In this document: positions 10,082 through 44,811 of the stretch, in pieces
How positions within the stretch are numbered: the first letter of the stretch is position 1
Layout: each line of letters starts with the position of its first letter
Source of the DNA: Plasmodiophora brassicae
Lineage: Eukaryota
Assembly (NCBI GenBank): GCA_036867785.1
Contig: CP145428.1
Coordinates: forward strand, 124,001 to 188,000
DNA length: 64,000 nucleotides
Direction: 5' to 3'
Notes under the pieces: model-generated
Database searches by the model: none
What the model was told of the DNA's origin: nothing
Seen by the model: only the letters and a program-made list of their open reading frames with translations
Position numbers and translations under genes: made by a program

Positions 10082-10373
10082 ATTGGCGGCGCGGGGCAGC
10101 AGTCGCCGACGGGCCGCCCGAAGATGCCGCTGCTGCTGCTGCTGCTGCTGCCTGCGCTACAGGGGGAGCCCACGGACACCGCCACGCAGTGTTGTACGGT
10201 CCACCGCCCGTCGGGCGGGCCGGTTCCTGTAGCAGTCGCCGCGAAAGGTGCGCCACTACTGCTCCTGCAGCTGCGGCTGGCGGCGGCTGCAGCCTGCAGC
10301 GACGGCGGCACGCGCGCACATTTTTGCAAAGTCGACGTTGCCAGCCGCCGCCCCCCCCTCCGCACATTCAACG

Positions 10374-18350: not shown

Positions 18351-20920
18351 ACAAACCCATCCGCAGATGGATTGTCCAGGTCTGCGTGCGGTACGTGTTG
18401 TGATCCCAGCCATGTCCAGTGGGCGTCCTTCACCCGGGGGGATGACTGTGCCCGACGTGGCGGCGCGAGCGCTCTGGGTCCGTCCTGTCTGCCCCTATCT
18501 GCATATCTGGCTTGTTTCTGTATCTCAGATCTGTTCCTGTTCACGTTACACCGAATCGACCGTCGCCAGGATGACGCGCTCGCGTTCCGGCCCAACCGGT
18601 TGCATCGGCGAGTAACTGAATCAGGCCGCATTCTTCATCGAAATGCGGGCCCGCGCCGAGGAGAAACTGAAATGCGGCAATCGCAACGGCCAACGCCGGT
18701 CGCGTGGCATAAATTAGGGCACACGCCATAGATCAGTAACGCTGGCTCGCATTTCTGGGCGTCGTGAGCTGTGTATAGTTTCATTCTTGTCGTGGTAGGA
18801 CGGTAAACACCACCAAAGTTAGCGATCTCCTGATGGAGTCTTTCGCGGACCTCCCCAGGAGATTTTTTGTGGAGTCTCCTGTGGGGAATTACGTTCCAGG
18901 ATCTCCAAACCGCATCCCGGCATCCGCCAGACCTTCCATGACTGCACCTACGACTGTAGTTAACTACCAGAGTCCTAGGCATATTATCAGCACGACTATA
19001 GCTAACTACTCGGTAGTGACACCCTCCAACTATACAGCTATAGTTAACTATTGCGATTCTCAGTCAGGTGAAATGGAACTGCGACGCCTAACCCGTCGCA
19101 GTCCGCGACGGGTGCCACCACCCATAGCATTGAATGTCTCTGTCGTTATGTGAAGGATTCTGTCGCGATTGACGCGGAACACGGGTCGGTTAGTACTAGG
19201 CTGCATGCGGTATATGCATATTTCTTCCTGGGGTTCACGATTCCCATCCGACTGGAGATTAGCTCCGTACTTGTTGACGTGCATCTCGACGATGCTTGGG
19301 ATCAGGCTCCAGTTTAGTTTAGTTTAGTTTATTTGTGTTTCGCGCTTTTCAGGCAGGCGCCTCGGTCTCGGTTCCGAGGACCGTAGGATCGCTTCCAGAA
19401 CGGCAGCTTCTCCCGGCCTGGCAGTGCCGGCCTGTCACCTTTGTGCTGGGATCTCGCAGGTTGGCGACTCCGGGGCGAGTCTGGGGGCTCAAAGAGCACC
19501 CCACAGGCTCGTAGACTTTGATCTTCCTCACTGTGGTTGATCTGGCTACACTAGTACTGACGACGTCCACCTCCACGTGGGAGGTGGTCACACTGTTTTA
19601 CAGGCGCCCCTTCGCCTTCCAACCTGCTCAAGTGATCCCATAAGAAAACTCCTAAACGACACCTACTGGGCTGTCGGGCACCCATAACAATTTAGGCCCT
19701 GTGGCCTAGGCGGGGCAGGGTAACCTGCACCGCGAGATCTCGTTGGTCGTGTCACGGTCGAGTCGCTGTCTTGGCGACTCAGCCGGCACCTAATTGGGCG
19801 CAGCGCACTACTACAATAAACGTCCACGGCGTTGGACCGACCTCAGTCGGTCAATCCGTGTGGTTGACACATCTTGCTCTGTCGTCACATTTTGACCGAC
19901 TACCCTTCGGTCGTACGCGTATCGTCTCGTCTCGTCTCGGCCCGTATCGACTCATATCGTATAATTGCACCGCGTCCTAACAACTGTTCCGTCTAGTGTA
20001 TCATCGCAGCTATGGCGGGAGGTGATGGGTTGATTCCGGCGTTGTCGGACCCGCCATCATCCGCGAATCCGGATGTTGCAGCTGCGGCGGATGTTGCTGG
20101 CGCTATCGAGCTGCGCGACCTGAAGGCGGAGATCCTCGACCTCTTAGCCCAGTTGAAATTCGCGCATGGCTCGCTGCCTAGGGCCAGCCCCCCCGCAGCG
20201 CCAGCTGTCTCGTCTCCCGAAGTGCGCAACGACTCGTCGGATTCTCCGGTCATCAGCGCTGTGCCTTCCCTATTGCCTCTCCACGCTTCTGTGGCTTCGT
20301 CTCTGCCGAATTCCGTCGCCCCGTCGACGCAGCATCCCGTGTCCCCGTCGCCGCCGCCTATTGTTGTCCAGTCCCACGATATCCCGCGATTTTCGGGGGC
20401 GGACGGGCTGTCGACGATGCGTTGGTTGACCGCCTTCGCGCGGATCACCCAGACGCCGTTAACGTCTACCAGTCCGCTTTCCGACGCTGTGCAATGCATC
20501 TTGACGACGGCCTTGAAAGGATACGCCTTGGAGACTTATCTTGACCTTTCCGAGGACGCGTCAATGGCGGACGTGGCATCCGCCCTGCTTCATGATTTTC
20601 CGGAGCCGTCGTTAAAGCGGGTCGAAGCTGATTTTGACAATTTGAAGCAGACTTCCAGTGTGGTTCACCATTCGCGGGAGTTCCAGCGCTTGTACAAGAA
20701 GGTTCAACAACTCGACCCCTTGTATAGGCTGAGTCCGTCCCGTTTGGCGGAAAAGTTCCGCATGTCCTTGCACCCTGCACTTTCTGATGCCCTCTTCATT
20801 TACAACTACACCGAGTACGACAAGATGTTCGAGATGGCGATCCATCTCGAACCGAAGTATCCGATCGCCGCTGTCAACGCTATCGAGGTCGGAGGGGCGC
20901 AACCTTTGGTCTGCCACTAT

Positions 20921-21063
20921 TGTGACGACCGAACACGATGAGTCAACCACACGGATTGACCGACTGAGGTCGGTCCGCGCCGTGGACGTTTATTGTACCT
21001 AGTGCGCTACGAAGGAGCCCAATTTGGTGCCGGCTGAGTCGCCAACACGACTCAGTCGTGACA
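20921..21063 (-). mobile_element. Solo LTR of Gypsy family B inserted in gag of family A copy 1
   Basis: Reverse complement of the LTR at 27054-27199 with a small deletion. TSD ACTAT. Absent at the same position (~61207) in copy 2. Confidence 0.95.
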
Positions 21064-21603
21064 ACTATTGTCGCGAGGCTGGACATTTCATTGCGTCCTG
21101 CCCCAAGCGACCTCCGTGCCAGCACTGTCACAAGGTTGGTCACCGCTCCGCGCTGTGCCCCGAGCGGCCTGCCGCTGCTGGTCCTCCGCCGCCCCCACCC
21201 AGCGCCAGCGTCCCGCAGGCTGGTCCCCCGGGAAATGTGCCCGGGCGTCTGGGAACGGGTTCCCCAGTCGCCCAGTAAACACTTCTTTTGGTTCCGAACC
21301 CAACTTTCTTCATGTTACGGATTTATTCTTTACGTCGGCTACATCTATACCACATCTATTGGTACCGGTCTGTCTCGTTATCGGCTCACGTCGCGTCAGT
21401 ACGCTCGCCTTGTTAGACTGTGGCGCGACGTCCAATTTTATCGACTGGTCGTTCTGTCGTCATCACGAAGTGCCTGTTCGCTCCAAATCGCGTGCCATTC
21501 CGGTTCGCGTCATTGACGGCCGTCATCTGGCCCCAATTACTCAGGAAACCGCCCCGCTACGAATCACCGTCGACGAATGTTTCGACAGTGACGTCGTCCT
21601 GAA

Positions 21604-22552
21604 TGTCGAGGACCATGTCCTACCACCGGCACACGATGACGCTGTGACTGTGCGCGGCTGTGTCACGTCCACAAAAGAGGCTCCGCCACCGTCGCCGTTG
21701 CCGGTAACGGCTTTGGCAAGCCCTGTTACACTGCGTTACGTCGCCATCGTCTCGCGCCGATGTCAGTGGAATAAATCACTTCGTTATCGTCTTCATCAGA
21801 TTAACAGTCGTACGCGTTCTACGCGCTTCGAGGCGGCGAGCCCGCCGGCGCCCCGCGCGCCGGTGCCATCCAGTGCCAGTCCCGCGTCACTGTGTCTCTG
21901 CCCTGACCCTGCTTCTGCACAACGCGCCACGAACGCCCACTCCAGACCGCGCCACGCGCAAGAGAGTCCAGGCAGATCGCGCTAGCAGGGCAGGTCGTCC
22001 TACGGGAATCCAGAACCATTACCGGAACGTAAGCGCCAGGCGTACGCCGGTCGTACGGGCCTCAATCGCTTGCCTCAACCTCTTCTCGATATAACGTTGT
22101 CCGCCGGCGCCTTCGGCGTCGGTGTCGTCCCGAGCCAGGTCCTCCTCTCTGTGTCGTCATTGACGACTTTGCCCCAGCATATCGCGCCACACCTGTCAGC
22201 TCTAGCTACGCCACGATCCGTCTCGTGTCGCGTCAACAAGCCAAGACATACGAGCACGAGCAAGGTCGTGTTGTACATGATCCAGAGTCGAAGGTCCAGC
22301 CGGGACACGTCCGTTCGACCGCCTTCCGCATGCAACCGCGTGCCGTTGGAGGGGGCGTGTCGAGGACCATGTCCTACCACCGGCACACGATGACGCTGTG
22401 ACTGTGCGCGGCTGTGTCACGTCCACAAAAGAGGCTCCGCCACCGTCGCCGTTGCCGGTAACGGCTTTGGCAAGCCCTGTTACACTGCGTTACGTCGCCA
22501 TCGTCTCGCGCCGATGTTAGTGGAATAAATCACTTCGTTATCGTCTTCATCA
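21604..22552 (+). mobile_element. TRIM-like non-autonomous LTR element (949 bp), Copia-related
   Basis: 195-bp LTRs at 21604-21798 and 22358-22552, TSD CTGAA, PBS GATTAACAGTCGTA, PPT GGAGGGGGCG. No coding domain recognised. Absent from copy 2 of the host element. Confidence 0.95.
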
Positions 22553-25500
22553 CTGAACATGATCCATTCGCCGCAGCATCCTGTCATCCTCGGCCTGCCG
22601 TGGTTGGCGGATACAAACCCTGACATCGATTGGCGGAGCCACCGTCTCCAGCATCGCGGCCCTCGCATCGCGGGGATCTCAATCCCGGCAGGAGACCTCC
22701 CTGCGTCTACGCATGCAGTTGATTCGGCGGCATCAGTCGAAACATTGCCGACTGCCTCAGCATCTGAGGTAGCCGAGGTGGAGGTAATTGCCCTCCCTGA
22801 GTTGGCCTCCGACGACGACGACGACGACGATTACTCCGAGTTCGGGACCGTCCCGGCTGCGGGCGTCGATAGCTCTAGCGCTTCCGTCATCGCTCCCGAT
22901 TGCCTCTCGGAGGTCGCTGTCACTGATACGGTGGCCGCCGGTCACAGTGAACCGCCTGCTGCTGTTGTCGACAGCTCTACCTCTCCCGCCCTCGCGCATG
23001 CCTGCCTCTCCGAGGTCGCTGCCGCTGCTACTGTGGCAGCGTGCCACAACGATCCGTTATTATCGTTCCCCTCGGGCCCCGAGCCGTCGTGCGTCCGGCA
23101 CCGTGGACCCGTCCGTCGAGGGGCGGGACAACGCCTCTCGCCGCCTCGCCCCTCTGGCGGGCTTCGTGGTCGCCACATTATTAATCTTTTGATGACTGCA
23201 TCCTTGGTCGCCCTGGCCTGGGTCCTTGGGTGGACTTATCTTCCATTCACGCGGCTCCCTTCCGGCGCCTCTGCGGAGCCCCTGATCTCGAACGCCGCCG
23301 ACGAGTCCTTCTTTACGCCCCTGGTCTCACCAGACGGTGACCCGGGGTCATCAACCTCGATTGCGTTCGTCAGCGCTGAGCCGTTTCTGGATGCTATCGT
23401 TGACGACGCAGCTTGTTACCTTCTGCATTATACTTGGACCGAACTCGACTCGGACTCAGTCTCCGGGCCTGCGCTTCCTGACGCCTATCGTGAGTTCTCG
23501 GACGTTTTCGCCACTGGCAGCCCGGCGTGCCTGCCTCCTCACCGCGCTTCCGATTGCCCCATCGATCTTAAGCCCGGCAAGGAGCCACCATTTTGTCGGC
23601 TATATGGTCTCTCCCAACGAGAGCAGGTGGCCCTCAAGCAGTATCTGGAAGCCAATTTAAAGTCGAATTTCATTCGCCCTTCCCGTTCTTCGGCCGGTGC
23701 GCCTATTCTGTTTGTACGCAAGAAAGACGGCTCGCTGCGACTTTGTGTCGATTACCGCGGCCTAAATTCTGCCACGATCAAGAACCGGTATCCACTGCCT
23801 CTTATTGACCAACTTCTTGCCAACCTTAGTCGGGCCACGATCTTCACGAAAATCGACCTGCGCAGCGCGTATAATCAAATTCGTATCCGCGAAGGGGACG
23901 AGTGGAAGACGGCGTTTCGCACCCCGTATGGACTCTTCGAATATTTGGTTATGCCGTTTGGCCTCGCAAACGCACCGGCTTCGTTCCAGTCGTTCATGAA
24001 TGATATGTTCAAGGATTACCTCGACCAGTTCGTTGTCGTATATCTGGACGACATCCTTATTTTTTCTGCGAACGTCGCCGATCATGAACACCATGTGCGC
24101 CTCGTCCTGGAACGACTTCGGGCTAGCAGTCTTACCGCTAAAATGGAGAAGTGTGTTTTCGGCGCCAAGGAGGTTGAGTTTCTCGGCTACCTCGTTTCTC
24201 GAGACGGACTGCGCCTCGACCCTGCCCGTATCGACACTATCCTGTCTTGGCAACCGCCACGAGATATCCATGGTCTCCAAGTATTCTTGGGATTCGCCAA
24301 TTTTTATCGCAAATTTATTCCTCACTTCGCGGAAATTGCTCTACCACTCACAAACCTGACGCGTGACGGTGTCGCCTTTATCTGGGATGCTGACGCTCAA
24401 GCTGCATTCGGCTCTCTGAAGGTTGCGTTCACATCGGCACCTGTCTTGGGCCATTTCGATCCTCATCAACCGTGTGATGTTTGCCATCGCTATGGTCCTT
24501 TCGCAAAAGGGCGGCGCAGATGGGGAGTTGCACCCGATCGCCTACTTCTCGCGGAAGCTGATTGCTGCCGAGATTAGCTATCCCATTTACGACAAGGAAC
24601 TCCTGGCGGTTGTGGAAGCGTTCACTAAGTGGCGGCAGTTCCTCGACTCAGATCAGCACCAAACGGTCGTGCATAGCGACCATCGTAACCTCGTCCACTT
24701 CATGTCTACCCACAAGTTAAACAGACGTCAGGTTCGCTGGTCTCAACTGCTTAGCGAATTCGATTTCGTGATTCATCATCGTCCGGGGCGACTTCATGGG
24801 AAGCCGGACGCCCTCACTCGTCGTCCGGAATACCAACCTTCGCCTGGTGACGAAGAAATTCTAGCAATGTCTCAACAGCTGCTTCCACCGCATCGCTTCT
24901 TCCGCCCGGACCCAGCTATTCTCTTTCTCCAGACCGGTACATCAGGCATCTCCCTTGTCGAACGTATTCGTCGCGAACAAGCCGATGACCCCTTCGTCCA
25001 GAAGACGTTATTATCGCTGGACGGGCCTCGTGGACGACGTTTCTGCGTTGCCGATGGTCTCTTATACAACGGAACCGCTCTCGTCGTCGCTGGTGAGGCC
25101 TGCAAGCTGGAAGTTCTGCACAGCCTTCACGACAACGTTACCGCCGGTCATTTTGGGGTTCGCAAGACATTGCAGCTCGTCAAGCGCGAGTTCTGGTGGC
25201 CCAAGATGTCCTCGTTCATCAAGTGTTACGTGGCGACCTGTGACACGTGTCGCCGCGTCAAACCTCCTCGCCATCGACCATCCGGCCTGCTACTTCCGCT
25301 ACCAATTCCAACCGCTCTCTGGTCCTCCATCTCAATGGACTTTATCGTCAAGCTCCCCTCCTCCCGCGGCTATGACTCTGTACTGGTCGTGGTCGACCGT
25401 TATTCGAAGATGGCAAACTTTGTGGCGTGTCGAGAATCCATTTCCGCGGATCAGCTTGCCGATCTGTTTCTTCAGAACGTGTTCCGTCTGCATGGCCTGC

Positions 25501-27053
25501 CCGACGACATTGTCTCGGATAGCGGACCCCAGTTCGTATCGTTGTTCTGGAAGCACCTCCTATGCCGTCTCGGCGTTGAACGCCATCTGTCATCATCCCG
25601 CCATCCCGAATCTGATGGCCAGACCGAGCGCGTCAACCAGATATTAGAGCAATACCTTCGCTGTTATGTGTGCTACCTGCAAGACGACTGGGAGCCATTA
25701 TTGCCGCTGGCCGAATTCTCTTACAATAACGTCGACCATTCGTCCACTGGAATGTCTCCCTTCTTCGCGAACTACGGCTACCACCCTCAGCTACGCGACC
25801 CTCGTCCTTGCAAACACGGTAGCTCCAATCCCTCTGCCGATGAACGCGTGGAGAACTTGACGGCCATTCGCCGTTACCTACACCGCCAACTGCATCGTGC
25901 TGTCAGCACCATGAAACGAGCTGCGGATCGGAAACGCCGACCTCATCCCGACTTCAAGATCGGGGAGTTGGTCATGCTCCGTCGAGGGGCAATTGCGACT
26001 GGCCGGCCATGCGGTAAGCTGGATGTCCAAATGCTCGGGCCTTTCGAAGTTAGTCGCATCGTTAATCCGGTCGCCTACGAACTCCTGCTCCCGGCATCCT
26101 TCCGCATCCACAACGTCTTCCACGCATCCCAACTGGAACCGTACGTCCCGAACGTGATACCCCATCGTGTGCAGCCTCCGCCACCCCCGATTCTGCTCGA
26201 CGACGACGACCAACCGCTGTTCATCGTGAAGGAGGTCCTGGACTCTCGATACCGTGCTGGTAAGCTGCAGTATTATATCGACTGGGAAGGGTACCCTGCA
26301 TCCGAGCACCTGGGAACCCGCCTCCAACTTGCAGGGCACCGGCGGATTCGATCGCCTGCTCGCGGCATTCCACGCTCGGTACCCAGACAAGCCCGGACCC
26401 CGTCTTCGACGCCCGTAAAAGGGGACTATTATGTCACGGTCGAGTCGCTGTCTTGGCGACTCAGCCGGCACCTAATTGGGCGCAGCGCACTACTACAATA
26501 AACGTCCACGGCGTTGGACCGACCTCAGTCGGTCAATCCATGTGGTTGACACATCTTGCTCTGTCGTCACAGGTCGGATATCAGCACGGATTTGTTCTTC
26601 GTTCTGGGTGGTGTTGGTGATCTTGGCGTGTTTGTTAGATGTATAGGCACTTTTTGTCCTTTGCAGACTTGAGAATGTTAATCATCTCGTCTTCATATTT
26701 CCAGAGGGCTTCTGTGAAGGAGTTTTTCCATAGTCTCGCGTATACGTCGCGTTCTTGTTGTAGTTTGTGGTGCAATGCGGTGCAGTGCAGGAGTTGATGC
26801 TCAATGGTTTCGGTTGCGTTCCCGCAGGCCGGCATTGAGATGACTCTCCGGCCATGTCTTGCAATTGGCTAATGTTATAGAGGTGCTGCCGTGCGCCGCA
26901 GTGTCCCGAGCGGGCGCGATTCAGCAGGGGGTGGGTATGGATTTTTCTGCTGTCGTATGCTATGTTTTTTTGCGTCGTCTCGATATCGTTGTCGGTTGGG
27001 AATTTCATCCCATTTGCTTTCTTTGAGGTTGTTCTTTAGATGATCTTCTAATC

Positions 27054-30000: not shown

Positions 30001-30078
30001 GTACAATAAACGTCCCCGGCGCGGACCGACCTCAGTCGGTCAATCCGTGTGGTTGACTCATCGTGTTCGGTCGTCACA
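27054..30078 (+). mobile_element. Non-autonomous Gypsy family B element (gag + protease; RT and IN deleted)
   Basis: 146-bp LTRs at 27054-27199 and 29933-30078 with one mismatch, TSD TAATC, PPT AGAAGGGGA. Gag and LLDCGAT protease are homologous to family A; only scraps of RH and the chromodomain end remain. Confidence 0.95.
27239..27445 (+). repeat. Tandem 20-bp repeat (TCGTATCGTATTGTGCCGTA)n in the family B leader
   Basis: About five consecutive units followed by a second shorter block. Confidence 0.9.
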
Positions 30079-31189
30079 TAATCGGTCGGCTGCCAGGCGT
30101 CTCAAATGGAGTTTGTAGGAGGATATGAATGGGGAGTGTTCTACTCCGCATAGTCCTTTCTTGGCCGCCCGTTTGGCCAGTTTGTCGATTTCTTCGCTGT
30201 GCCCTATTTCAAGGAATTTCCTTCTGCGGGGGGTGGCGGAGTCCGAGTCTGAGTCATCGTCGCTGCTGCTATCAGAGTCGTTGGGCTCGCTGGGCTCTAT
30301 TTGGATGGGGTGGGTTTTGTCTACGTAGGCGGGTATTGGATTCTCACTGCTACTGTCCGTGTCGGAATGGTCGTAGTTGGTAGGAGAGGGCGGTGTCTGG
30401 TTTTGGATTTCTTTCAGTGTAAGACACGGGGGTTGCGAGTTGGCACAGTCATTCATCTTTTCACCGTCTGCTTCCGATAGGTCCTTGCGGTTTTCTACAG
30501 GTGTTCTCGGTTATGGTTTTGTTTCTGCACTGGGCTCAGGTCTTGTGTGCTTCCGCAGTCGCTTTGTGCTTCGGTGTCGTCCGTGGTTTCCCAGCGGGCT
30601 GCTCGGAGCTGGTTCGTCTTTCGGTAATGGCCAATGGGACGTGGCTAGGGATGAAGTGTACGTGTACCTCATTGTTGTTCGCTACCAGTTGGGCCAGTTT
30701 ATCTGCGCAGGCTGCCACCTCGTCATGTACCCTGTTGGGTCTTGTTGGGAGGGCCTGTAGTTGTCTGATCCTCGATAAAGAGTCCGAAAATATGTGTACT
30801 TTGGTGTCTTTGACGTCTTGTTCGGCGGCTGTGTCCAGGCCACATCCTAGTAATGAGTTCCGTCTCGTAACTGGATTGCACTATGATGGAGCTAAGTGCA
30901 GTTTCCCTTCCTCTGTAGGCGGGTCGGTCCTGTTATCAATATACAGGGCGGCTGCCCCTGCATTTTCTCCCGGTGTAAGGCTTCCGTCAGTCCATATTTC
31001 TACTGGTGCTTCTTGCGGTAGTAGTTCCCCTGCAAGGTGTTTGTCTATAGCCTCTGCTCTAGAACTTGTGTGGAATTGGACTCGGTAGAGGTTTTCTAGT
31101 ATCTGCTCGTCGATTTTTACTTTCGGGTGGACGTCCGTGTACGCTCTGGGCATGTATTCAGAGAGGGTATTTTCCATTATTTTGGGCAA

Positions 31190-33637
31190 CGTTCAGGAAA
31201 ATAACCCTCCCTCAAGGCAAAATAAAGCGCAGGCAACCAGCAACCAGGCAGGCAACCAGGTTGTCAACCAGGGACCGCAAGCAACCATGGGCCGCGCAAT
31301 CACTCGGAGTGCGTCGCGGATTGGGAACCCTCAGCCTGTCGCTCGAGCCGCCTCCCCGACCGGTGATTCGCACGCCTTCGCCATGGCACGGCAACGCGAT
31401 CGGCGCCGTCCCCGCACGAAACGTCACCGGCTGCCGGCGTCCCAGGTTGAGGCCATCAACGCGCTCGCGGAATCCGGTGTCCTCGCCGCCATGAATCGGT
31501 ATGGCTTGGCCATTCTCAACGAACCACTCAACTTGTTCGAGAGGACGGGCACCGGTGTGGAGAACACCAAGAGGGCTTACGCGAAACACTGGAGAGGCTT
31601 ATCGACGTTCTTTGCTGTCATTGGCGACTACGACTCGATGCTGATTCTGGATCCGCGTATCGCCAATGACGCCGCGTGCCCGTCGATGAAGCTGGACAGC
31701 ATCCGGTTGTATTTGGACTACAAGCTGCTCCCACCGGGGACCCCGATGTTCGGTGCATCTGGACGAGCATTGCATACGGCAACGGGCGAACAGCTGATCG
31801 CTGAGGGCGGGTGGAACGACCCGAAGATCTGCGAGCAACTGGGCAGCGCCGTCTTCGCCATCCATGTCGAGCGTGGGCACACTGGCGACTACTTGGAGCC
31901 ATGTTCGAACTGCGTCGCTCTATATGCTGACGACCGTTCGACGCCTGGCTGCGAACGCCATCAGTATTGTCGACGGATTTGGCGATCTGGCAATCCGCGT
32001 CGACATCCTGACATGGGCAAGGCGTTGCAGCGTCAGGCTCGAGCACATGCCGCCTACGTCCCGCAGGGCGACAGCGCGCTGTCGCCATTCGAAGTCGCTC
32101 GCCTTCGGAACTACGTGTTCGAGTATGGTGGCAATGACTGGAGACACCTGGGGATGTACGCCATGTTCCGGATCGGTATCGACCTGGGCCTTCGTTCTGA
32201 CGAGCTGTGCTCGATTCGGTATGATGACTTCCTACCGGCGCTGACGACGGTCCGTGACGATGGGGTCGTTGAGTCCCTTGGAATCAAGGTCTTCGGCAAG
32301 GACCAGAAGTGGCGCACTCGAATCCTGTTCCGGAACGACGCGATCCCATCTCTGTGTCCCGTGCGACATCTGTTGGGTTATATCGCGGCGTTCTCCATCA
32401 AGGAGGAGTATATCTTCCGTGATGATCCTGCAGATCCATCGAAACCGATCTCTTATGACGCGTTCAACAATTGGGTCAGCGACACTTGCTCTCATCTGTT
32501 CGAGCGAGGTGGCCCATGGGGGACACACGTCATGCGCAAGTCCCATTACCATGACGGCCGATGGCGTGGCGCATCGTTCGGGGACCTGATGAAGTCCGCT
32601 GGTCATACATCGGTCCCCAATGCACTCCGGTATTACCAAGACGCGGACACGGTCTACCACATCGCACTTCTGAACCCTCAAGTGAAGCAGTTCACAACGA
32701 TGATGTCGCCATGGCGCTCTACCCACATTGACAATTTCAGCATGGCGGCTGCACATGCTGCCGGATCCAGGACCACAACCACGTTGTTCGATCTCGCGGA
32801 CCGGATGTCCAACGACCTGGATCTGTACTCAGAGGAGAATGTCACGCTGCGTGTCTTTGGGGAGAAGTTGCTTCAGAACCCGTCGACTAACAGCGTTGAC
32901 CAGCAGATCGATGAGCTGCTGTCGAGTGTTCCGGCGGACAAGGCCGAGCAATTGCGTGCGTTGATCAGCAAGAAGTTGTTGGAGGTCGCGACGTCAGTCC
33001 AAGCACCTGCTCCCCACAATGCCGTTGCTGCCGCCGTCGATGGCAGTGTTGCTGGCGGTGCTGAATCAGGTGGGCAAGCGTGTCACGATACCATGAATGG
33101 ACAAGCAAGCGCCCAACGGAACGGTGGGTCTGTGCCGCAAGCGAATATTCCGCCGGAAGCGCCGCTGCCGAACCCTGTCGCCAAACGTCGCGGGGGGACC
33201 TTCGATGCGCCATCCCGTGGTTTGCTGAAAGATTGCGGCAGTGCCAGGGAACGGCTGGACATCGTCCTTCGTGTTGCTGATGAGCTCAAAGAACGGCAAT
33301 CAAAAGAGCTGACAGAAACGTGTCGGCAGTTTCAAAGTACAGCGGTGAAGCCTGTCATCGCCTGCTTCCAGCGGCATCACGGGTCCAATCCTGAGGCGTT
33401 TCTGGCGCAATGGCCAACATTCTTTCCGTCCCGATTCGCCTACAAGTGTTGCGACGCGTCTACCGACGATTGCGGTACTATCAAGTCGAACGCCAGGTCT
33501 ACAGGGTCCTAACGCCCATACATACACAGTCAGGCATGTCACCTTGTGTTGCACCATTTATAGCGGGATTGATCCTCGGACTAGTGTACGCGCATTTTTT
33601 GTGACCGCAAGCAACCACGTTCAACCACCCTCGTTAC
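31190..33637 (+). mobile_element. Tyrosine-recombinase DNA transposon (Crypton-like), 2448 bp, inserted in the LINE
   Basis: Flanked by GGCAA direct repeats (31185-31189, 33638-33642). No TIRs, LTRs or RT. Removing it restores the LINE reading PYLPKIMEN. Confidence 0.88.
31287..33512 (+). CDS. Tyrosine recombinase (741 aa from ATG 31287), intronless and uninterrupted
   Basis: Catalytic set GLRSDEL (R), GKDQK (K), LCPVRHL, THVMRKS (HxxR), AGH (H), ALRYYQ (Y). Also a Cys/His cluster CSNC..CERHQYC and a distinct C-terminal domain. Confidence 0.9.
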   Translation: MGRAITRSASRIGNPQPVARAASPTGDSHAFAMARQRDRRRPRTKRHRLPASQVEAINALAESGVLAAMNRYGLAILNEPLNLFERTGTGVENTKRAYAKHWRGLSTFFAVIGDYDSMLILDPRIANDAACPSMKLDSIRLYLDYKLLPPGTPMFGASGRALHTATGEQLIAEGGWNDPKICEQLGSAVFAIHVERGHTGDYLEPCSNCVALYADDRSTPGCERHQYCRRIWRSGNPRRHPDMGKALQRQARAHAAYVPQGDSALSPFEVARLRNYVFEYGGNDWRHLGMYAMFRIGIDLGLRSDELCSIRYDDFLPALTTVRDDGVVESLGIKVFGKDQKWRTRILFRNDAIPSLCPVRHLLGYIAAFSIKEEYIFRDDPADPSKPISYDAFNNWVSDTCSHLFERGGPWGTHVMRKSHYHDGRWRGASFGDLMKSAGHTSVPNALRYYQDADTVYHIALLNPQVKQFTTMMSPWRSTHIDNFSMAAAHAAGSRTTTTLFDLADRMSNDLDLYSEENVTLRVFGEKLLQNPSTNSVDQQIDELLSSVPADKAEQLRALISKKLLEVATSVQAPAPHNAVAAAVDGSVAGGAESGGQACHDTMNGQASAQRNGGSVPQANIPPEAPLPNPVAKRRGGTFDAPSRGLLKDCGSARERLDIVLRVADELKERQSKELTETCRQFQSTAVKPVIACFQRHHGSNPEAFLAQWPTFFPSRFAYKCCDASTDDCGTIKSNARSTGS

Positions 33638-36340
33638 GGCAAATAAGGCGTCACTATTCCGAGGGGGGTCCAGCCATCGCCCTCCCCATCCCATGTGTCG
33701 TACTCTTGTCCTAATAGGGTGTCGTTAGCAATTGCCGATAGTACCGCCGTAGTTGTACTTGTGCATATGGCATCTCGTAGTAACGGAAATCCTGTCATTG
33801 CGTGCAGCAGAGGTGTTGGCGTGGAGCAGAACGCACCAGCATATGCTCTCATGTACTCATTGTATGCAATTTCTAACGGGCGAAGAACGCTTTTCATTTC
33901 TTTCCCAGTTTCCGCTCCTAGTATCGGCAGGTAGTAGTTTAGTTTCCCCCCAATGAATCCTTTGCATATTTGATGGTATGTCTTGATGGGAAAATTGTAT
34001 TTTAGGAGTGACCTGACTGCTCTGCACATTTGCCTGATATTGGCTGCTATGCCTGTGAGGCCGATCATCATCATCCCGCTTCTGTCTTCCTCATTTGCGC
34101 GCAACGTGATTCCCAGGTACTTAACTTCTGGGGCCGTCGTAATTCTGGTTTTGTTCGTCTTTAGGCAGTCATCTGGGCTATACTCATTGAAAAGTATCAC
34201 CGTTTTGTCCCAGTTGATTTTGATGTGATTGTCTTCACACCATTTCATTAAGGCTGCGTTCTTCCTACGCAAGATGCGTTTCACCTGTTTCTTTGTTTGT
34301 CCGGTTGCCCAAGGGGCGATGTCATCAACGTAGATGTTGCTAGTGTCTTCTTCAAGGGGAGCATCATATACATATATTGCCCATAGGAGTACACTCAGAC
34401 TTGACCCTTGTGGGATCCCGCTCGTTTGCTTTCGTTGTCTGGACGTGGTTCCGCGGTGTGATACTTCAAATTTCCTGTTTGAGAGCCATTCGTCAATTAT
34501 TAGTATTAGGTAGGGGTCAATTTGCATCCTTCGCAACTTTTCGATTAGCTTAACATGTTTCACTCTGTCGAATGCTTTTGTGAAGTCATAGAATATGGTT
34601 GCGAACTGTTTGTCTTTAACTGTCGCGCACCCCGCGTGGTGAAGTAGGCGTATCAGCGCCTGGGACGTGTTATGGGCCTCCCTACCCCCTTTCTGGTTTG
34701 GTGGTAGGTGTTTTTCGGCTTGGTGGCGTAATGGGGTTTCAATTATCGATTCGACTAGTTTGGCTAAGTTAGACAGGAGGGCTATCGGTCGGAATTCGCC
34801 TGGCTTTGCCTTCGGTAGGGGCCGGACTTTGGCGATTTTTAAGTCGTCTGGGAATTTTCCATCTTTGACGATGTCGTTGTTGATGGCTGCCAGGATATAT
34901 TCCGCTGTTGTTTCTTCTTCGCATGCTCTTTTGAGGAGCACGTTTGTGATGCCGTCTACTCCTCCGGCGGAACGAATTTTGGCTCGCTTCAGGGCTTTTT
35001 CAAGTTCTCTTCGAGTGATAGGTGTTGGCCTATTGCTTTCTTTCTCTGTTTGGAGAGCTTTAATTAACGCGTCGTGTTCCATCCTTTCTTTCTCTGTCGT
35101 TTCAAGGTCGTTATCGTCGTATATGCTGGTAAATTTTGTTGCTATTTCTTCAGCCTCCTCGTCGGCTCTTTTGGATTTGATTGTTCGTGGCGTTCGTTTG
35201 CTGTTAAGTTCAGGGTTGATCTCTCTTATTAGTTTCCACGTCGTGGCGCCTGTGGAGTCAGCAACCGCTGTCTCTGCCAGTTCAGTGTATCGTTGTACCT
35301 TGGCTGTTTTGTATTCTCTCAATACTTCAATGCTTTCATTACGGAGCGTTGTTTTCAGGGCCTCCATGTAGGCCTCAGGTTTTTGGTCTCGTCGCGCTTT
35401 TTGGAGTGTTTCTTTCGCCTGTTCTTTCCTGCGACAGGCGTCTCGGAGGCCTGTAGTCCAGAATTTGTGGTTTTCTCGGGGTGTTTCTTTATAAGCAGTG
35501 CTATTTCTGATTATGCTGCTTAGTTTGCTCAGGCTCGCTTCGGCGATGTTTTCGTATTCAAGCCATAAGGTGATGTTCTCGGTCGTAAGGTTGATGTCGA
35601 CTGTCGATTTGTGGTCATTTCCATCGAAAAGTGATTCGGGTTCGGTGATTGTTAGTGCAGTCTCCATAATCGTGAATTTGTGGTCGCTATCCAGGTCGGG
35701 ACCTAGCCTCCATGCAAGGATGTTTTCGCGCGCGTCACTATTGCACATGCCAATGTCAAGCACACTCCCTTTTTCCTCGTTAGCGGGGTCGTATCTAGTG
35801 GACTGCGTTATATCGTTCAGGACTTCGAACTCAATAAGGATTGGGTCTAGGTAGGGTCTTCGTGCTCTAACCGAGGCATCTAGTCGGCAGTCCCGTGTGT
35901 TGAGGTCGCCTGTGATGATTGTAGGTCTGTTTTCACTTGTGACAAGCCGATCTACTTCGTTCCAGTATGCTTTGCGTGTTCGCTGCTTAACGTCAGGGGG
36001 ATGTAGGGGTGTATGAGTAGCGTTTCGCCATTGATTAGGACCATTTGTGTTGTTATCCTTTTGTTTTCAAATTTCTGTAGCTGCTTCGCTTTGATTCGTT
36101 CTGCGTTTATGTTCTTTGTCCAGAATATTCCCGACTGGGTATTCAGGTCCGAGAATTCGTAGTTGGGGAAGTGGGCGATCTTCCTTCTAGGGCCTAGTTC
36201 AGATATGCATAGTATGTGGATTTTGTTCAGTTTCGCGAATTCTGCCAGTCGCTCAGCTTTGAGTGTAGTCAGTGTCCGGGCGTTCCACTGTCCGACGTTT
36301 AGCCGGTTCTGGTCAGCGTCTTGTGAATTTGAATCCTGTA
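33638..36340 (-). pseudogene. LINE ORF, endonuclease + reverse transcriptase portion (frameshift near 35990)
   Basis: ORFs 35952..37217 and 33634..35763 carry APE and RT motifs. The frame continues as LPKIMENT at 31189 once the YR element is removed. Confidence 0.88.
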
Positions 36341-37785: not shown

Positions 37786-38240
37786 TGATGAAGACAATAA
37801 CGAAGTGATTTATTCCGACCGACACCGGCGCGAGACGGCGGCGACGTAACGCTACGTAACAGGGGCTTGCCAAGCCGTTACCGACAACTGCGTCAGTGGC
37901 GGGGCCTCTGCCGTGGACGTTACGCAGACGCGCACAGTCCCGGCGTCACCGTGTGCCGGTGGTACGACATGGTCCTTGACACGCCCCCTCCAACGGCACG
38001 CGGTTGCATGCGGAAGACGGTCGAACGGACGGGTGCCGGCTCGACCGTTGGCTCTGGATCATGAACAACACGGACTTGCACGTGCACATATGTCTTGGCT
38101 CGTTGACGCGGCACGAGACGGATCGTGGCGTAGCTAGAGGTGACATGGACGGCGCGATTTGCTGAGGCTGCTGTCGACGATGACAACGCAGGGCTCCGGG
38201 TCTGGCTCAGGACGACACCGACGCTGAGCGCGCCGGCGGA
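37786..38240 (-). mobile_element. TRIM family copy, partial (3' LTR 37786-37981 plus internal part), interrupted by Copia
   Basis: Reverse-complement match to the LTR, PPT and internal region of 21604-22552. Confidence 0.9.
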
Positions 38241-41632: not shown

Positions 41633-41815
41633 TGAGAAAGACGATAATGGAGTGGATATATTACGTACGGCGTGTGCGGCGGACGTTACAGTGGCGACGT
41701 AGTCGCCGACGGTGTAACGGTTGCCAACGCCGGCGGGCACGGAGTCGCGGAGTGCGTGACGGCGTTCACGTGCTGCAGGCATGTGCTGCTGGTCGTAGTG
41801 GATACGTTGTTCGCA
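41633..41815 (-). mobile_element. Inverted LTR of a related Copia family
   Basis: TG..CA ends and patchy similarity (GCGGAGTGCGTG, TGTGCTGCTGG) to the reverse complement of 38241-38430 and to 45979-46186. The flanks do not form a TSD. Confidence 0.7.
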
Positions 41816-43760
41816 TGCCATGAACCATACGCCTTCAAAGCGTCGTGGAGGTCATGCACCGGTGACGGCGGCGTTTGGCATCCAACCGGAGAATCCTCTA
41901 GACCTGATCTGGGACTTGAAGGCTAGCGATTGGCGACCTGTGAATCCTGCGACCATTACTCAGCACATCGAGAAGATGAAGGACGATTTCGGCAACATAC
42001 ACAAGGATGTCGAGATGGGCAAAGAGAAGCGGCATCGAGCCAATGTCCAGCAGCGCAACAGGCAGCTGCGTCCTGGAGACGATGAAGCGTTCATTCCAGG
42101 TGACTACGTCTTGTGCGCACGACCGAACATGGGCCCGGGGAACAAACTGATCGCCAAGTGGAATGGCCCGTTCCGTGTGCTGCAGCGACTGAACGATCAG
42201 GTGTACCTGCTGTACGATCCTCTTCACGAGAAGGAGTTTCGGGCACACATCCAACGGATCAGACGATACGCTGATGGGAAGTTGAACATGACGGCGACGA
42301 TGAAGAAGCATCTTCAGCACTCGAATCACAAGCTCTTGGTGGAGAATCTAGCTGACTGCCGATACAATGCGAGCGAGAAGCGAATCGAAATCAAAGTGCT
42401 CTGGCAAGGATTCGAGGAATCGGACGCCACATGGGAACTGGCGGACATCATAATCGAGGACGTGCCAACGATGGCTCGTGATCTGTATGACCGACTGGGA
42501 GATGACCACCCTCAGGCGGAGGAGTTGCGAACACTGTTGAACTCGGCGGCGACGAACGGGAATCGCCAGCCTGCCTCGAAACGACGTCAAGCAAAAGGAG
42601 CGCGACGTCAGAGGACTAAACGACAACGGAATTGACGATATGATGATGAACCGGCTGGAACATGGTAAAGTAGCTGGTCGAAGGTTGCTAACCGTACATA
42701 GGCAACGAGGAACAACGACGCGAAAACGGAAAGGACGTCGATCGGACGCACGGTGCGCGGAGCACCTGCGTGGGCACGGGGCCCGAACCACTGGGCCCGG
42801 GACTCAGTCTGGGAACATTCAGCAAATTGGCCACTGAATGGGATCATGTACCAAATGGAAACCAACGGTACGGAACTCGCATATGCATGGGGAAACACTC
42901 CACCACAGTCGGATCCTAAAGATTGGACTTCGGCTAACCCTGGTAGTCAAACGGACGCCAGTCATCGGACTCCTAAAGATTGGGCTTCGGTGAACCGATA
43001 TCGGATGGGAACGGAACTAACTACGGATGCACATGGCTGGACGCGGTGTGGGTATTCGTGGTGGTTGAGAGCGGAACTTACTGGACGCAGTAGTGAGCTC
43101 ACAACCGGCGCTGATGTAGTGTGTTGGACGCAACTCACAGAATCAGTGCATGGGGAACGGGAACTGGAATTGGATGGAACTGGGTGCGAATTGGGAACTG
43201 TGGAATTGGAAATGGTGCCTTAATGTCGGCGTATGACCTGTCGTACACCACATGGGGACGGTTGGCTGGATCACTGGGAAATATGGAACGTTTGGTGACT
43301 CGCTGGAGTGATTTGGAAAGGATCGGTGCCTGTAACGAGGTGACCACCTCCCACGTGGGGGTGGATGTCGTCAGTATGGCTGAGAACTGTTAGCACTATG
43401 CTGACATGGTCCGGCGAATCTGATTCACTCAACTACGTCCTTATTGCGATGAGTCTAACCTCAAGAAACGGGCGTGACCAATCTGAACGCGCACACGAAC
43501 CAAGTAACGCCTACGTGTCGCACGAATGCAGCAACGAGCCTACGTATCTCTACGTCTGCATCCAGGTCATGTTCGGAAAAGGGTAGTGTAGACGGTGGAG
43601 CAGTGCAGCATGCCCTGTCGCAGCCAGAGATACCAAGAACAGCGTCTAGGAGAGGCAGCCCTAAGACCAGGAGAGTCCGTACGGCATGCGGGAAGGCCGG
43701 ACGGCAACGGGGAGAAGGATCAGGAGATCTGGGAACGAGGACGCTGAGGTTCTCTATACA
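41816..43760 (+). mobile_element. 3' fragment of a distinct Gypsy chromovirus (family G): IN C-terminus, chromodomain, long 3' UTR, putative 3' LTR 43587-43760
   Basis: ORF to 42635 with KLIAKWNGPFRV and IKVLWQGFEESDATWE. A purine tract GGAAAAGGGTAG precedes TGTA...TACA. Confidence 0.82.
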
Positions 43761-43769
43761 CGATCTATA

Positions 43770-44811
43770 TGACGCGGGACTGGCACTGGATGGCACCGCC
43801 GCGCGGGGCGCCGGCGGGCTCGCCGCCTCGAAGCGCGTAGAACGCCTACGACTGTTAATCTAATGAAGACGATAACGAAGTGATTTATTCCGACCGACAC
43901 CGGCGCGAGACGGCGGCGACGTAACGCTACGTAACAGGGGCTTGCCAAGCCGTTACCGACAACTGCGTCAGTGGAGGGGCCTCTGCCGTGGACGTTACGC
44001 AGTCGCGCACAGTCCCAGCGTCACCGTGTGCCGGTGGTACGACATGGTCCTTGACACGCCCCCTCCAACGGCACGCGGTTGCATGCGGAAGACGGTCGAA
44101 CGGACGGGTGCCGGCTCGACCGTTGGCTCTGGATCATGAACAACATGGACTTGCACGTGCACATATGTCTTGGCTCGTTGACGCGGCACGAGACGGATCG
44201 TGGCGTAGCTAGAGGTGACATGGACGGCGCGATTTGCTGAGGCTGCTGTCGACGATGACAACGCAGGGCTCCGGGTCTGGCTCAGGACGACACCGACGCT
44301 GAGCGCGCCGGCGGACAACGTTATCTTGAAAGGGGAGTGTTTCAAGCGATTGAGGCCCGTACGACTGGCGTACGCCTGGCGCTTACGTCCCGGCATTGGT
44401 TCTGGATTCCCGTAGGACGACCTGCCCTGCTAGCGCGATCTGCCTGGACTCTCTTGCGCGTGGCGCGGACTCGAGCGGGCGTTCGTGGCGTGTTGTGCAG
44501 AAGCAGGGTCAGGGCAGAGACGCAGTGACGCGGGACTGGCACTGGATGGCACCGGCGCGCGGGGCGCCGGCGGGCTCGCCGCCTCGAAGCGCGTAGAACG
44601 CGTACGACTGTTAATCTAATGAAGACGATAACGAAGTGATTTATTCCGACCAACATCGGCGCGAGACGATGGCGACGTAACGCTGTGTAACAGGGCTTGC
44701 CAAGCCGTTACCGACCACGGCGACAGTGGCGGAGCCTCTGCCGTGGACGTTACACAGTCGCGCACAGTCACAGAGTCACCGTGTGTCGGTGGTACGACAT
44801 TGTCCTCGACA
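43770..44811 (-). mobile_element. Tandem TRIM array (LTR 44617-44811, internal, shared LTR 43861-44056, start of a second internal region)
   Basis: Both LTRs are followed on the minus strand by PBS GATTAACAGTCGTA. The middle LTR is also preceded by the PPT. Confidence 0.9.

What the first reader, a model, noticed from the sequence alone, without database searches (positions are those of the whole stretch)
19555..19608. Same ~50-nt hairpin motif in the 3' UTRs of two unrelated retrotransposon classes (LINE and Gypsy)
Seen: the LINE 3' UTR (minus strand, 19555-19608) reads GGCGCCTGTAAaacagtGTGACCACCTCCCACGTGGAGGTGGACGTCGTCAGTA. The family G Gypsy 3' UTR (plus strand, 43325-43376) reads GGTGCCTGTAAcgagGTGACCACCTCCCACGTGGGGGTGGATGTCGTCAGTA. 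The core is 35/37 identical and lies in the sense orientation of both elements. Surrounding sequence is unrelated apart from short upstream blocks in the same order (TGTCGT, GGATCACT, TTGGAA). The core folds as CCACCUCC/GG(A/G)GGUGG, the A/G change keeps pairing (U-A to U-G), and the stem is closed by UGA...GA as in tandem G-A (k-turn/SECIS-type) modules. Inference: a mobile or convergently retained cis-acting RNA element (ribozyme, stability, export or translation signal) shared between retroelements. CCAC-CUCCCAC-GUGG recalls P3/L3 of HDV-like ribozymes, but I could not build P1 and P2, so the class is unassigned.
Basis: partly seen in the sequence, partly recalled or inferred. Interest (0 to 1): 0.8.

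Follow-up and report, generated by a model that had tools for sequence, protein, structure and literature searches.

The report
Hairpin block shared by two retroelements
A 53-base stretch holding a short hairpin really is shared by the tail regions of a LINE and a Gypsy-type retrotransposon in a clubroot-pathogen-like genome, but whether it is a working RNA signal or a leftover of recombination between the elements remains open.

Summary
A discrete 52-54-nt block lies in sense orientation at 19555-19608 (-) and 43325-43376 (+). Its 37-nt core is 35/37 identical, and no such match was found in 100 shuffles.

- The first copy is in the 3' UTR of a nested-interrupted APE/RT/RNase H LINE. It starts about 200 nt after the ORF2 stop and ends 223 nt before the (AAACT)n tail.
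- The second copy is in the 1.2-kb non-coding stretch between the chromodomain end of a Gypsy-type pol and its 3' LTR.

The protein hits (95% and 86% identity) are named Plasmodiophora brassicae.

No Rfam family matches, even at E<=10. The HDV-like, k-turn and SECIS readings are not supported.

Contigs from four public runs show the block at 5-50x the depth of its LINE flanks, with contig breaks at its edges. It occurs with LINE-type and Gypsy-type flanks, and possibly others.

I saw no covariation, and the fold energy is ordinary. The miniature (TRIM-like) derivatives of the same LTR family lack the block.

Best reading (0.4): a portable RNA hairpin module exchanged between retroelements, which helps expression of the full-length transcript. 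The main rival (0.35) is a neutral recombination patch. Interest is moderate.

The parts
19555..19608 (-). Copy 1 of the shared block (54 nt), in the LINE 3' UTR
   Evidence: 86.5 bits with model R1.
43325..43376 (+). Copy 2 of the shared block (52 nt), in the non-coding stretch between the Gypsy-type pol end and the 3' LTR
   Evidence: 80.3 bits.
19567..19587 (-). Hairpin of copy 1: 8-bp stem CCACCUCC/GGAGGUGG with loop CACGU
43344..43364 (+). Hairpin of copy 2. It has the same stem with one U-G wobble, and its apical 10 nt, CCCACGUGGG, are self-complementary.
   Evidence: direct reading.
33634..36146 (-). LINE ORF2, endonuclease and reverse transcriptase part
   Evidence: Pfam Exo_endo_phos_2 and RVT_1. 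It is 95% identical to a protein that the source names Plasmodiophora brassicae PBRA_008749. tblastn.
30079..31132 (-). LINE ORF2, RNase H-like part, degraded by stop codons
   Evidence: tblastn of P0002 aa 593-812; three-frame reading.
26635..27053 (-). LINE ORF2 C-terminus with a Cys/His knuckle-like stretch. The stop codon is at 26635-26637.
   Evidence: direct reading. Continuity across the two Gypsy insertions follows from their target-site duplications.
19332..19749 (-). Main piece of the LINE 3' UTR. It follows 26577-26634 once Gypsy A is removed.
   Evidence: The duplication GGTCG flanks Gypsy A, 19750-26571. Public contigs bridge 19749/19750 (records 5, 15, 29).
19311..19331 (-). LINE 3' tail, 4.2 copies of a 5-nt unit
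   Evidence: Single-copy flank follows from 19303 downwards (record 17).
41799..42635 (+). Gypsy-type pol C-terminus (integrase SH3 plus chromodomain) upstream of copy 2
   Evidence: Weak Pfam hits SH3_Tf2-1, Integrase_p58_C and Chromo. Colinear BLASTP with a complete Gypsy pol, E 0.016. 86% identical to PBRA_008748 (rve+Chromo), and distant hits are full Gypsy pols.
42636..43862 (+). 1,227-nt stretch without a recognised domain between the pol stop and the 3' LTR. Copy 2 starts 689 nt into it and ends 486 nt before the LTR.
   Evidence: no Pfam hit in its ORFs.
37786..37981 (+). 5' LTR of the Gypsy-type family that hosts copy 2
   Evidence: Self-BLAST and end sequences.
43863..44056 (+). 3' LTR of the same element. 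It is followed by a TRIM-like internal part and a third LTR, up to 44811.
21604..22552 (-). 949-bp TRIM-like derivative of the same LTR family. Its 195-bp LTRs are 99.5% alike and its target duplication is CTGAA. It lacks the block.
   Evidence: Model R1 finds no match there at E<=10.

Best explanation
The block is a portable RNA module of about 53 nt. It consists of a conserved 5' arm (GGYGCCUGUAA), a variable 4-6-nt spacer, a GC-rich 8-bp hairpin with a 5-nt loop, and a conserved 3' arm (GAYGUCGUCAGUA).

It has been copied between unrelated retroelement lineages of one genome: an APE/RT/RNase H LINE and a chromoviral Gypsy family. The most likely route is reverse-transcriptase template switching or illegitimate recombination between their RNAs or cDNAs. 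The stable hairpin would favour pausing, and that would explain why the breakpoints fall at its edges.

It is kept in the sense transcript of the protein-coding (autonomous) forms, in the non-coding stretch after the last ORF. There it most likely serves as a binding site for a host or element protein that helps the long intronless transcript be exported, stabilised or translated. It does not act as a signal needed in cis for packaging, reverse transcription or integration.

Shown: the block, its discreteness, its orientation, its position, and its presence in further copies and contexts.
Inferred: the transfer mechanism, the RNA-level action and the function.
For: 1. The block is real and discrete: 0 of 100 and 0 of 1000 shuffles reach it, while both flanks are at chance level.

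2. Both copies are in sense orientation and both lie after the last ORF.
- In the LINE the block starts about 200 nt after the ORF2 stop and ends 223 nt before the tail.
- In the Gypsy-type element it starts 689 nt after the pol stop and ends 486 nt before the 3' LTR.

3. It is over-represented in public contigs (4 of 4 runs). Depth over 19557-19598 against the downstream flanking bins 19494-19556:
- X1: 114-150 against 17-29
- X2: 91-117 against 11-21
- X11: 1244-1463 against 23-48
- X15: 1273-1452 against 778-969

4. Contigs break at the block's 3' edge. There are loose ends 'before 19555' in 3 contigs each of X2, X11 and X15.
- The X11 consensus equals the window's Gypsy-type downstream flank bar one letter.
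- The X2 and X15 consensuses agree only 0.63 and 0.55 among their contigs, so the flanks are diverged or different.
- X15 records 20 and 22 carry the block with LINE-type flanks.

5. Both core differences alternate Watson-Crick with G-U on the sense RNA (U-A/U-G and G-C/G-U). On the antisense strand they would be A-C mismatches.
- By depth arithmetic, the Watson-Crick letters belong only to the single-copy contig of this locus: 11 of 149, 11 of 116.7, 22.9 of 1257.6 and 90 of 1373.
- All other copies, including those in LINE context, have the G-U form.

6. It is the only small isolated inter-family match among the 8 short self-BLAST hits of this TE-rich window.

7. Two TRIM-like derivatives of the same LTR family keep the LTR, the 259-nt leader and the last 93 nt but not the block. 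One of them moved recently (LTRs 99.5% alike, target duplication present). This points away from a cis replication signal.

8. Precedent: a transport element that binds NXF1 has been reported at the ORF2/3' UTR border of human L1 (passages of PMC3045867, citing Lindtner 2002, which I did not read).
Against: - No compensatory double change was seen. With two window sequences plus variant tables, covariation cannot be tested.
- Fold energies are ordinary, with z between -0.2 and -1.0. The z of -2.67 for the Gypsy 85-mer comes from a second, unshared hairpin.
- Perfect 8-bp hairpins are common in the window: 34.
- A diverged LINE-tail contig (X15 record 20) differs from the window at about 5-6 of 54 block positions against about 17 of 114 flank positions. 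That is no clear excess conservation. These counts are mine, taken, whose tables leave 23+5 rows unshown.
- Only contigs at least 80% alike were laid, so decayed copies of the block would be missed. This is an ascertainment bias.
- One X15 contig joins 19523 to 19608 ('between: not known'), so the block may be dispensable in the LINE.
- The copies may be up to 37/37 identical between families. That fits a recent, possibly neutral transfer as well.
- No Rfam family matches.
- No copy was found outside this organism: 5 chance hits in metagenomes, 0 in viral contigs, 0 in prokaryote genomes.
Confidence: 0.4

Rival explanations
1. Neutral mosaic patch. A short piece of one retroelement was copied into the other by template switching or as filler DNA during repair. 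It was inherited by that sub-lineage and has no function. The hairpin only made the breakpoints fall where they do.
For: - Copies appear nearly identical between families (arithmetic), which fits a recent event.
- There is no covariation, and fold energy is ordinary.
- 8-bp hairpins are common.
- There is no clear excess conservation in the LINE-to-LINE comparison, and one contig joins across the block.
- The LINE tail as a whole looks mosaic, with depths from about 1x to several hundred x along 450 nt.
Against: - Moving exactly 53 nt needs two switches without flanking homology.
- The block recurs with several different downstream flanks (agreement 0.55-0.63 among contigs).
- Differences cluster in the spacer: 5 of 8 differing columns fall in 8 of 54 columns.
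- Both copies are in sense orientation and both lie in post-ORF non-coding regions.
- No other such patch was found in the window.
Confidence: 0.35
2. Both elements independently took up a piece of a third sequence, either a small non-autonomous repeat or a lineage-specific host non-coding RNA, which is the real owner of the block.
For: - Depth at the block exceeds that of both kinds of flank in some runs.
- Downstream loose ends in X15 and X2 agree poorly, so further contexts may exist.
- The apparent 84-nt presence/absence unit in the LINE tail is longer than the 53 nt shared with the Gypsy copy (all).
Against: - Neither copy is flanked by a target-site duplication (direct reading).
- No tRNA is in the window and no Rfam family matches at E<=10.
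- The X11 loose-end consensus is simply the Gypsy-type flank.
- No free-standing copy is in the window.
Confidence: 0.12
3. The block acts at the DNA level. The palindrome centred on CACGTG (CCCACGTGGG in the commoner form) would be a binding site for a dimeric DNA-binding protein, or a recombination-prone palindrome.
For: - Direct reading shows an 8-10-bp perfect palindrome at the hairpin tip in both copies.
- The window's copy 1 is a 21-nt near-perfect inverted repeat.
Against: - Conservation covers 37 nt or more, including the asymmetric arms, which is far more than such a site needs.
- The commoner form has T-G mismatches in the long arms, which pair only as RNA.
- A position after the ORFs is unusual for a retroelement promoter or enhancer (general knowledge).
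Confidence: 0.08
4. Self-cleaving ribozyme (HDV-like or other) or a k-turn/SECIS-type module.
Against: - There are 0 matches to any of 4227 Rfam families at gathering score or at E<=10.
- P1 and P2 cannot be drawn: there is no upstream complement to the strand after the would-be P3.
- The block lies in the 3' UTR, whereas such ribozymes in LINEs sit at the 5' end (recalled).
- The loop lacks the unpaired A's of SECIS.
- The contigs of the two runs guessed to be RNA cannot show ends.
Confidence: 0.03

Closest known systems
Transport elements of retroelements: the constitutive transport element between the last ORF and the 3' LTR of simple retroviruses, and the NXF1-binding element at the ORF2/3' UTR border of human L1
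   Same: - They are sense-strand RNA structures after the last ORF.
- They occur in both an LTR-type and a LINE-type element.
- They serve expression of the unspliced full-length RNA rather than reverse transcription (PMC3045867 passages; listings and abstract starts).
   Different: - There is no sequence or family relation.
- Here the very same sequence is in both element classes.
- It is much shorter (about 53 nt, one 8-bp stem).
- Binding and export are untested.
- In the synthetic L1 of PMC3045867, the 3' UTR and that element were not essential for retrotransposition (section title and Table 2 legend).
Shared 3' tails of LINEs and their partner SINEs (stringent 3'-end recognition by the LINE reverse transcriptase)
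   Same: A stem-loop-bearing 3' UTR segment is shared between different retroelements through recombination or template switching (PMC5135761, search listing and abstract start only).
   Different: - That signal lies at the very 3' end and is shared with elements that use the LINE's enzyme.
- Here the block ends 223 nt before the tail.
- The partner is an LTR element that has its own, mechanistically different reverse transcription.
Dimerisation hairpins of retroviral and LTR-retrotransposon RNAs
   Same: A GC-rich hairpin whose tip is self-complementary (ACGU in the loop, CCCACGUGGG in the commoner form). Two RNAs could therefore pair loop to loop.
   Different: - Those hairpins lie in the 5' leader (recalled) and are needed in cis.
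- Here the block is in the 3' part and is absent from the mobile TRIM-like derivatives.
HDV-like self-cleaving ribozymes of LINEs
   Same: Association with a LINE, and a C-rich loop closed by a short GC stem.
   Different: - No P1, P2, P1.1 or P4 can be drawn.
- There is no Rfam match.
- It lies in the 3' UTR rather than at the 5' end.

Membership tests
HDV-like ribozyme | Nested double pseudoknot: the P1 3' strand directly after P3 pairs with the 5' end, and P2 and P4 are present | tested here: not met
   Direct reading: the strand after the would-be P3 has no complement in the 30 nt upstream. cmscan gave 0 matches at E<=10.
Any Rfam self-cleaving ribozyme (hammerhead, twister, pistol, hatchet, hairpin and others) | Match to the family covariance model | tested here: not met
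   0 matches among 4227 families at gathering score over 64 kb, and 0 at E<=10 over 461 and 411 nt.
SECIS / k-turn module | Tandem sheared G-A pairs (UGA...GA) at the helix base. For SECIS, also unpaired A's in the apical loop and a longer upper helix. | tested here: not met
   The loop is CACGU. The upper helix is 8 bp. The 3' A pairs with U in the consensus fold. No Rfam match. The feature list itself is recalled.
Retroviral-type constitutive transport element | Lies in the sense RNA between the last ORF and the 3' LTR or 3' end | tested here: met
Retroviral-type constitutive transport element | Direct binding of the mRNA export receptor and rescue of export of an unspliced reporter | not testable with these tools
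   Needs bench work.
LINE 3' recognition stem-loop (stringent type) | Stem-loop directly upstream of the 3' repeat tail | tested here: not met
   The block ends at 19555 and the tail starts at 19331, a gap of 223 nt.
Dimerisation / packaging hairpin of LTR elements | Retained by non-autonomous derivatives that are mobilised in trans | tested here: not met
   The TRIM-like copies at 21604-22552 and 44057-44811 lack it. The first of them has a target duplication and LTRs 99.5% alike.
Dimerisation / packaging hairpin of LTR elements | Self-complementary loop | tested here: met
   ACGU lies within the loop, and there is an 8-10-nt palindrome at the tip.
Structured functional RNA in general | Covarying base pairs and stability beyond composition | tested here: inconclusive
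   Only G-U/Watson-Crick alternation at 2 pairs, with no double changes. z is -0.2 to -1.0. There are too few sequences.
Mosaic (chimeric) retroelement segment | Discrete shared patch with unrelated flanks in two families of the same genome | tested here: met

The most novel reading that the evidence does not exclude
The block is a cross-class 'handshake' module. Its self-complementary tip would let RNAs of different retroelements (LINE and Gypsy) pair loop to loop. One element's RNA could then be co-packaged or co-localised with the other's particles. This would give a LINE access to a Gypsy capsid, or the reverse, and would make the block a hotspot of inter-element recombination that spreads itself. 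That would be a selfish RNA module moving among retroelement classes.
Probability: 0.06. Interest if true: 0.8.

Novelty: new variant of a known kind. Interest (0 to 1): 0.35.

Why it matters
LINEs and LTR retrotransposons replicate by different routes and are not known to share cis signals. If one short RNA module is kept by both, it points to a step they have in common, the handling of a long intronless transcript by the host. It would give a handle on that step in plasmodiophorids, obligate crop parasites in which RNA biology is hard to reach by genetics. It would also document modular exchange between retroelement classes.

If the block is only a recombination patch, it is an ordinary sign of mosaic evolution inside a TE cluster. 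It would still be useful for TE annotation, because it can make repeat libraries chimeric.

Tried and rejected
- Whole genome: none is held for this window. Copies could therefore not be catalogued directly.
- Metagenome scan with the 21-nt core: 5 loci, all in 53-74% GC contigs whose flanks do not match the block. These are chance hits.
- Viral contigs: 0 hits. Prokaryote genomes: 0 hits.
- Rfam: 0 at gathering score and 0 at E<=10.
- Covariance model R1, built from the two copies with a proposed 16-pair structure and run with filters off over the window: it finds only the two copies. The next hits (13 bits, E 0.21, at 37537-37595, and 46309-46365) show no hairpin on reading and were rejected as chance.
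- The outer helix proposed by the consensus fold (CUG/CAG, AC/GU): it is invariant or broken by the spacer variants seen in contigs. I do not rely on it.
- Coding reading: the sense frames are stopped, or shifted by the 2-nt spacer indel. The antisense frame is open over 17 codons only. Rejected on direct reading.
- tRNA-like or primer-binding reading of the 3' arm: no tRNA gene in the window to compare with. Not pursued.
- RNA evidence: no RNA holder is listed on record. X1 and X2 are only guessed to be RNA and are contigs, so they say nothing about expression, ends or strand.
- Parts of the stretch without cover in some runs (19263-19325) are not interpreted.
- Literature: searches turned up no paper describing a hairpin shared by LINE and LTR elements or this motif. 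These are word searches of open-access text only. Supplements were not opened.
Full report
**1. What is there**

- A degenerate 37-mer with R/Y at the two variable sites matches only 19555-19591(-) and 43340-43376(+). It does so with 0 mismatches, even when 3 are allowed, and 0 of 100 dinucleotide shuffles give any match. The 21-nt hairpin core behaves the same way.
- blastn between the two 3-kb neighbourhoods gives one real alignment, 19635-19555 vs 43300-43376 (75% over 81 nt, E 1.9e-10).
- In local alignment against shuffles, the 54/52-nt block scores 71 (0 of 1000 shuffles reach it). The roughly 110 nt upstream score 16 (331 of 1000) and the downstream flank scores 12 (959 of 1000).

The shared thing is therefore a discrete block of about 53 nt.

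Within the block the layout is:
- a 5' arm (10 of 11 positions identical),
- a spacer that differs in length by 2 nt and in most letters,
- the 37-nt core (35/37 identical).

**2. The hosts**

The organism is Plasmodiophora brassicae or a very close relative. The LINE ORF2 piece is 95% identical to PBRA_008749, and the Gypsy-type pol piece is 86% identical to PBRA_008748. Both names are as given by the source.

*The LINE (minus strand).* It is broken by nested insertions but can be followed through them.
- The endonuclease and RT part lies at 36146-33634.
- An RNase H-like part lies at 31132-30079.
- Gypsy B (27054-30078, target duplication TAATC) interrupts it.
- The ORF2 C-terminus with a Cys/His knuckle-like stretch follows, with the stop codon at 26637-26635.
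- Gypsy A (19750-26571, duplication GGTCG, 140-bp LTRs 99.3% alike) interrupts it again.
- The rest of the 3' UTR runs 19749-19332, and a 5-nt-repeat tail lies at 19331-19311.
- The block starts about 200 nt after the stop codon and ends 223 nt before the tail.

*The second host.* It has 196-bp LTRs at 37786-37981 and 43863-44056.
- Its only pol remnant is 41799-42635, the integrase SH3 plus chromodomain end of a Gypsy-type pol.
- The large ORF at 38336-41635 has Copia-type domains and is bracketed by 51-nt inverted repeats. It looks like a separate insertion.
- The block lies in the 1,227-nt stretch without recognisable domains between the pol stop and the 3' LTR.

Both copies are in the sense orientation of their hosts.

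**3. Other copies**

No genome is held. I therefore laid contigs of four public runs that hold the LINE tail on 19200-19800 at 80% likeness or more. The numbers of contigs laid were 35, 26, 41 and 109.

- *Depth rises sharply over the block.* Over 19557-19598, against the 19494-19556 flank, the depths are X1 114-150 against 17-29, X2 91-117 against 11-21, X11 1244-1463 against 23-48, and X15 1273-1452 against 778-969.
- *Contigs end at the block's 3' edge.* Three contigs each in X2, X11 and X15 have loose ends there. The X11 loose-end consensus is the window's Gypsy-type downstream flank bar one letter. In X2 and X15 the three contigs agree only 0.63 and 0.55, so their flanks are diverged or different.
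- *Some contigs carry the block in LINE context.* X15 record 20 (19462-19629) and record 22 (19555-19684), and X1 record 7, carry the block or part of it with LINE-type flanks.
- *The window's LINE letters are private to this locus.* This follows from depth arithmetic. The letters at the two variable core sites are carried only by the contig of single-copy depth that is identical to this locus: 11 of 149, 11 of 116.7, 22.9 of 1257.6, and 90 of 1373 or 1529. Every other copy, including those in LINE context, has the letters of the Gypsy copy.
- *One contig may lack the block.* One X15 contig joins 19523 to 19608, skipping 84 nt that begin one base inside the block's 5' edge. What lies between is 'not known'.

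The block is present in further copies in both contexts, but a LINE-tail form without it may also exist.

Caveats:
- The tables are cut (23+5 variant rows, 76 loose ends and 188 pieces are not shown).
- Depth is one figure per contig.
- Copies less than 80% alike cannot appear.

Outside this organism I found nothing: 5 chance hits in metagenomes, 0 in viral contigs and 0 in prokaryote genomes. In the window, a covariance model built from the two copies finds only those two.

**4. Structure**

The only robust element is the 8-bp GC-rich stem with the loop CACGU.
- The two core differences alternate U-A with U-G in the stem, and G-C with G-U in a possible 2-bp extension.
- Both keep pairing on the sense RNA and would give A-C mismatches on the antisense strand.
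- Given transitions at paired sites this has about a 1 in 4 chance, so it is weak evidence for the strand and none for function.
- No double compensatory change was seen.
- Fold energies are within 1 sd of shuffles (z -0.2 to -1.0).
- The better z of the Gypsy 85-mer (-2.67) is due to a second hairpin that is not shared.
- Perfect 8-bp hairpins are common here: 34 in the window against a mean of 8 in shuffles.

The tip is self-complementary: ACGU in the loop, CCACGUGG in both copies, and CCCACGUGGG in the commoner form.

**5. What it is not**

There are no matches to any Rfam family at gathering score or at E<=10.
- *HDV-like ribozyme.* If CCAC/GUGG were P3, the strand that follows would have to pair with the 5' end. 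No complement exists upstream, so this membership is not met.
- *SECIS or k-turn.* The loop has no unpaired A's, the helix is short, and the 3' A is paired in the consensus fold.
- *LINE 3' recognition stem-loop.* It is 223 nt from the tail.
- *Coding sequence.* The spacer indel shifts the frame.
- *A third element.* There is no target duplication around the block in either copy (direct reading).

**6. How it most likely works**

The block is discrete, with contig branch points at its edges. It occurs with several different flanks, and the block itself is nearly identical between families. This says the module has been moved between retroelement lineages. Template switching of reverse transcriptase at a stable hairpin is the simplest route. 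This is an inference.

A clue to function comes from the non-autonomous relatives. The 949-bp TRIM-like elements of the same LTR family keep the LTRs, the 259-nt leader and the last 93 nt before the 3' LTR, but not the block. One of them moved recently: it has the target duplication CTGAA and LTRs 99.5% alike. The block is therefore not needed in cis for packaging, reverse transcription or integration.

What autonomous LINE and Gypsy RNAs share, and short derivatives do not need, is the expression of a long intronless coding transcript. My best reading (0.4) is a protein-binding RNA hairpin module that aids export, stability or translation. It is analogous in position and role, not in sequence, to retroviral transport elements and to the NXF1-binding element reported at the ORF2/3' UTR border of human L1 (passages of PMC3045867; the original paper was not read).

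Rivals:
- *A neutral recombination patch (0.35).* It is favoured by the near-identity, the lack of covariation, the lack of clear excess conservation in the LINE-to-LINE comparison, and the generally mosaic depth profile of the LINE tail.
- *A third owner of the block (0.12).*
- *A DNA-level palindromic site (0.08).*
- *A ribozyme, k-turn or SECIS (0.03).*

**7. Novelty and verdict**

Word searches of open-access text found no description of a hairpin shared by LINE and LTR elements, or of this motif. Sharing of 3' segments is well known between LINEs and SINEs (PMC5135761, listing and abstract start only). Sharing between a LINE and a Gypsy element would be a new variant of that kind.

Interest is 0.35. 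The matter can be decided by a genome-wide catalogue in the complete public assemblies; a 2026 preprint reports 55 of them, with TEs at 11-14% of the genome dominated by Gypsy and Copia (passages).

Noticed in passing
window 31089-33512 (+): An 807-aa open frame fills the gap between the RT and RNase H parts of the minus-strand LINE. Its only Pfam hint is a weak tyrosine-recombinase match (Phage_integrase, E 0.0058, below the cut-off). It may be a Crypton- or DIRS-like insertion.
   Followed up: partly
window 38256-41792 (+): A 1099-aa ORF has Copia-type gag-pre-integrase, rve and SH3_retrovirus domains but no RT hit. It is bracketed by 51-nt inverted repeats that are 78% complementary, and a related end lies at 46075-46172. 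This is an odd architecture: integrase-bearing, with inverted ends. It sits inside the Gypsy-type element and replaces most of that element's pol.
   Followed up: partly
window 21604-22552; 37786-44811: A 949-bp TRIM-like element has 195-bp LTRs (99.5% alike) and the target duplication CTGAA. The empty site is seen in the sister Gypsy copy at 61738-61742. Separately, there is a tandem LTR-internal-LTR-internal-LTR array at 37786-44811.
   Followed up: partly
window 19346-19493 and 19641-19682: The last ~150 nt of the LINE tail have contig depths 10 to several hundred times that of the single-copy contigs. In X11 the figures are 2650-10353 against about 23. A second ~40-nt segment upstream of the block is also very deep in X11 (2313-4668). 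This suggests SINE-like users of the tail or many truncated copies, and a mosaic UTR.
   Followed up: no
window 19524-19607: One contig of run X15 joins 19523 to 19608. This is an apparent 84-nt presence/absence unit that starts one base inside the block's 5' edge and runs 31 nt past its 3' edge (table 5).
   Followed up: no
window 2676-5369 (-) and 19.7-64 kb: A weak ankyrin-repeat ORF lies in a 63-71% GC stretch, followed by more than 44 kb of nested retroelements at 51-60% GC. A 2026 preprint describes a TE-rich block near ankyrin effector genes in this species (passages). I did not test whether this is that place.
   Followed up: no
protein P0002: The second-best relative of the LINE ORF2 (36% identity; APE+RT+RNase H) is filed under Beta vulgaris. 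It is far closer to the LINE than any other hit (303 bits against 116 bits or less). It could be a sugar-beet LINE or come from a beet-associated organism.
   Followed up: no
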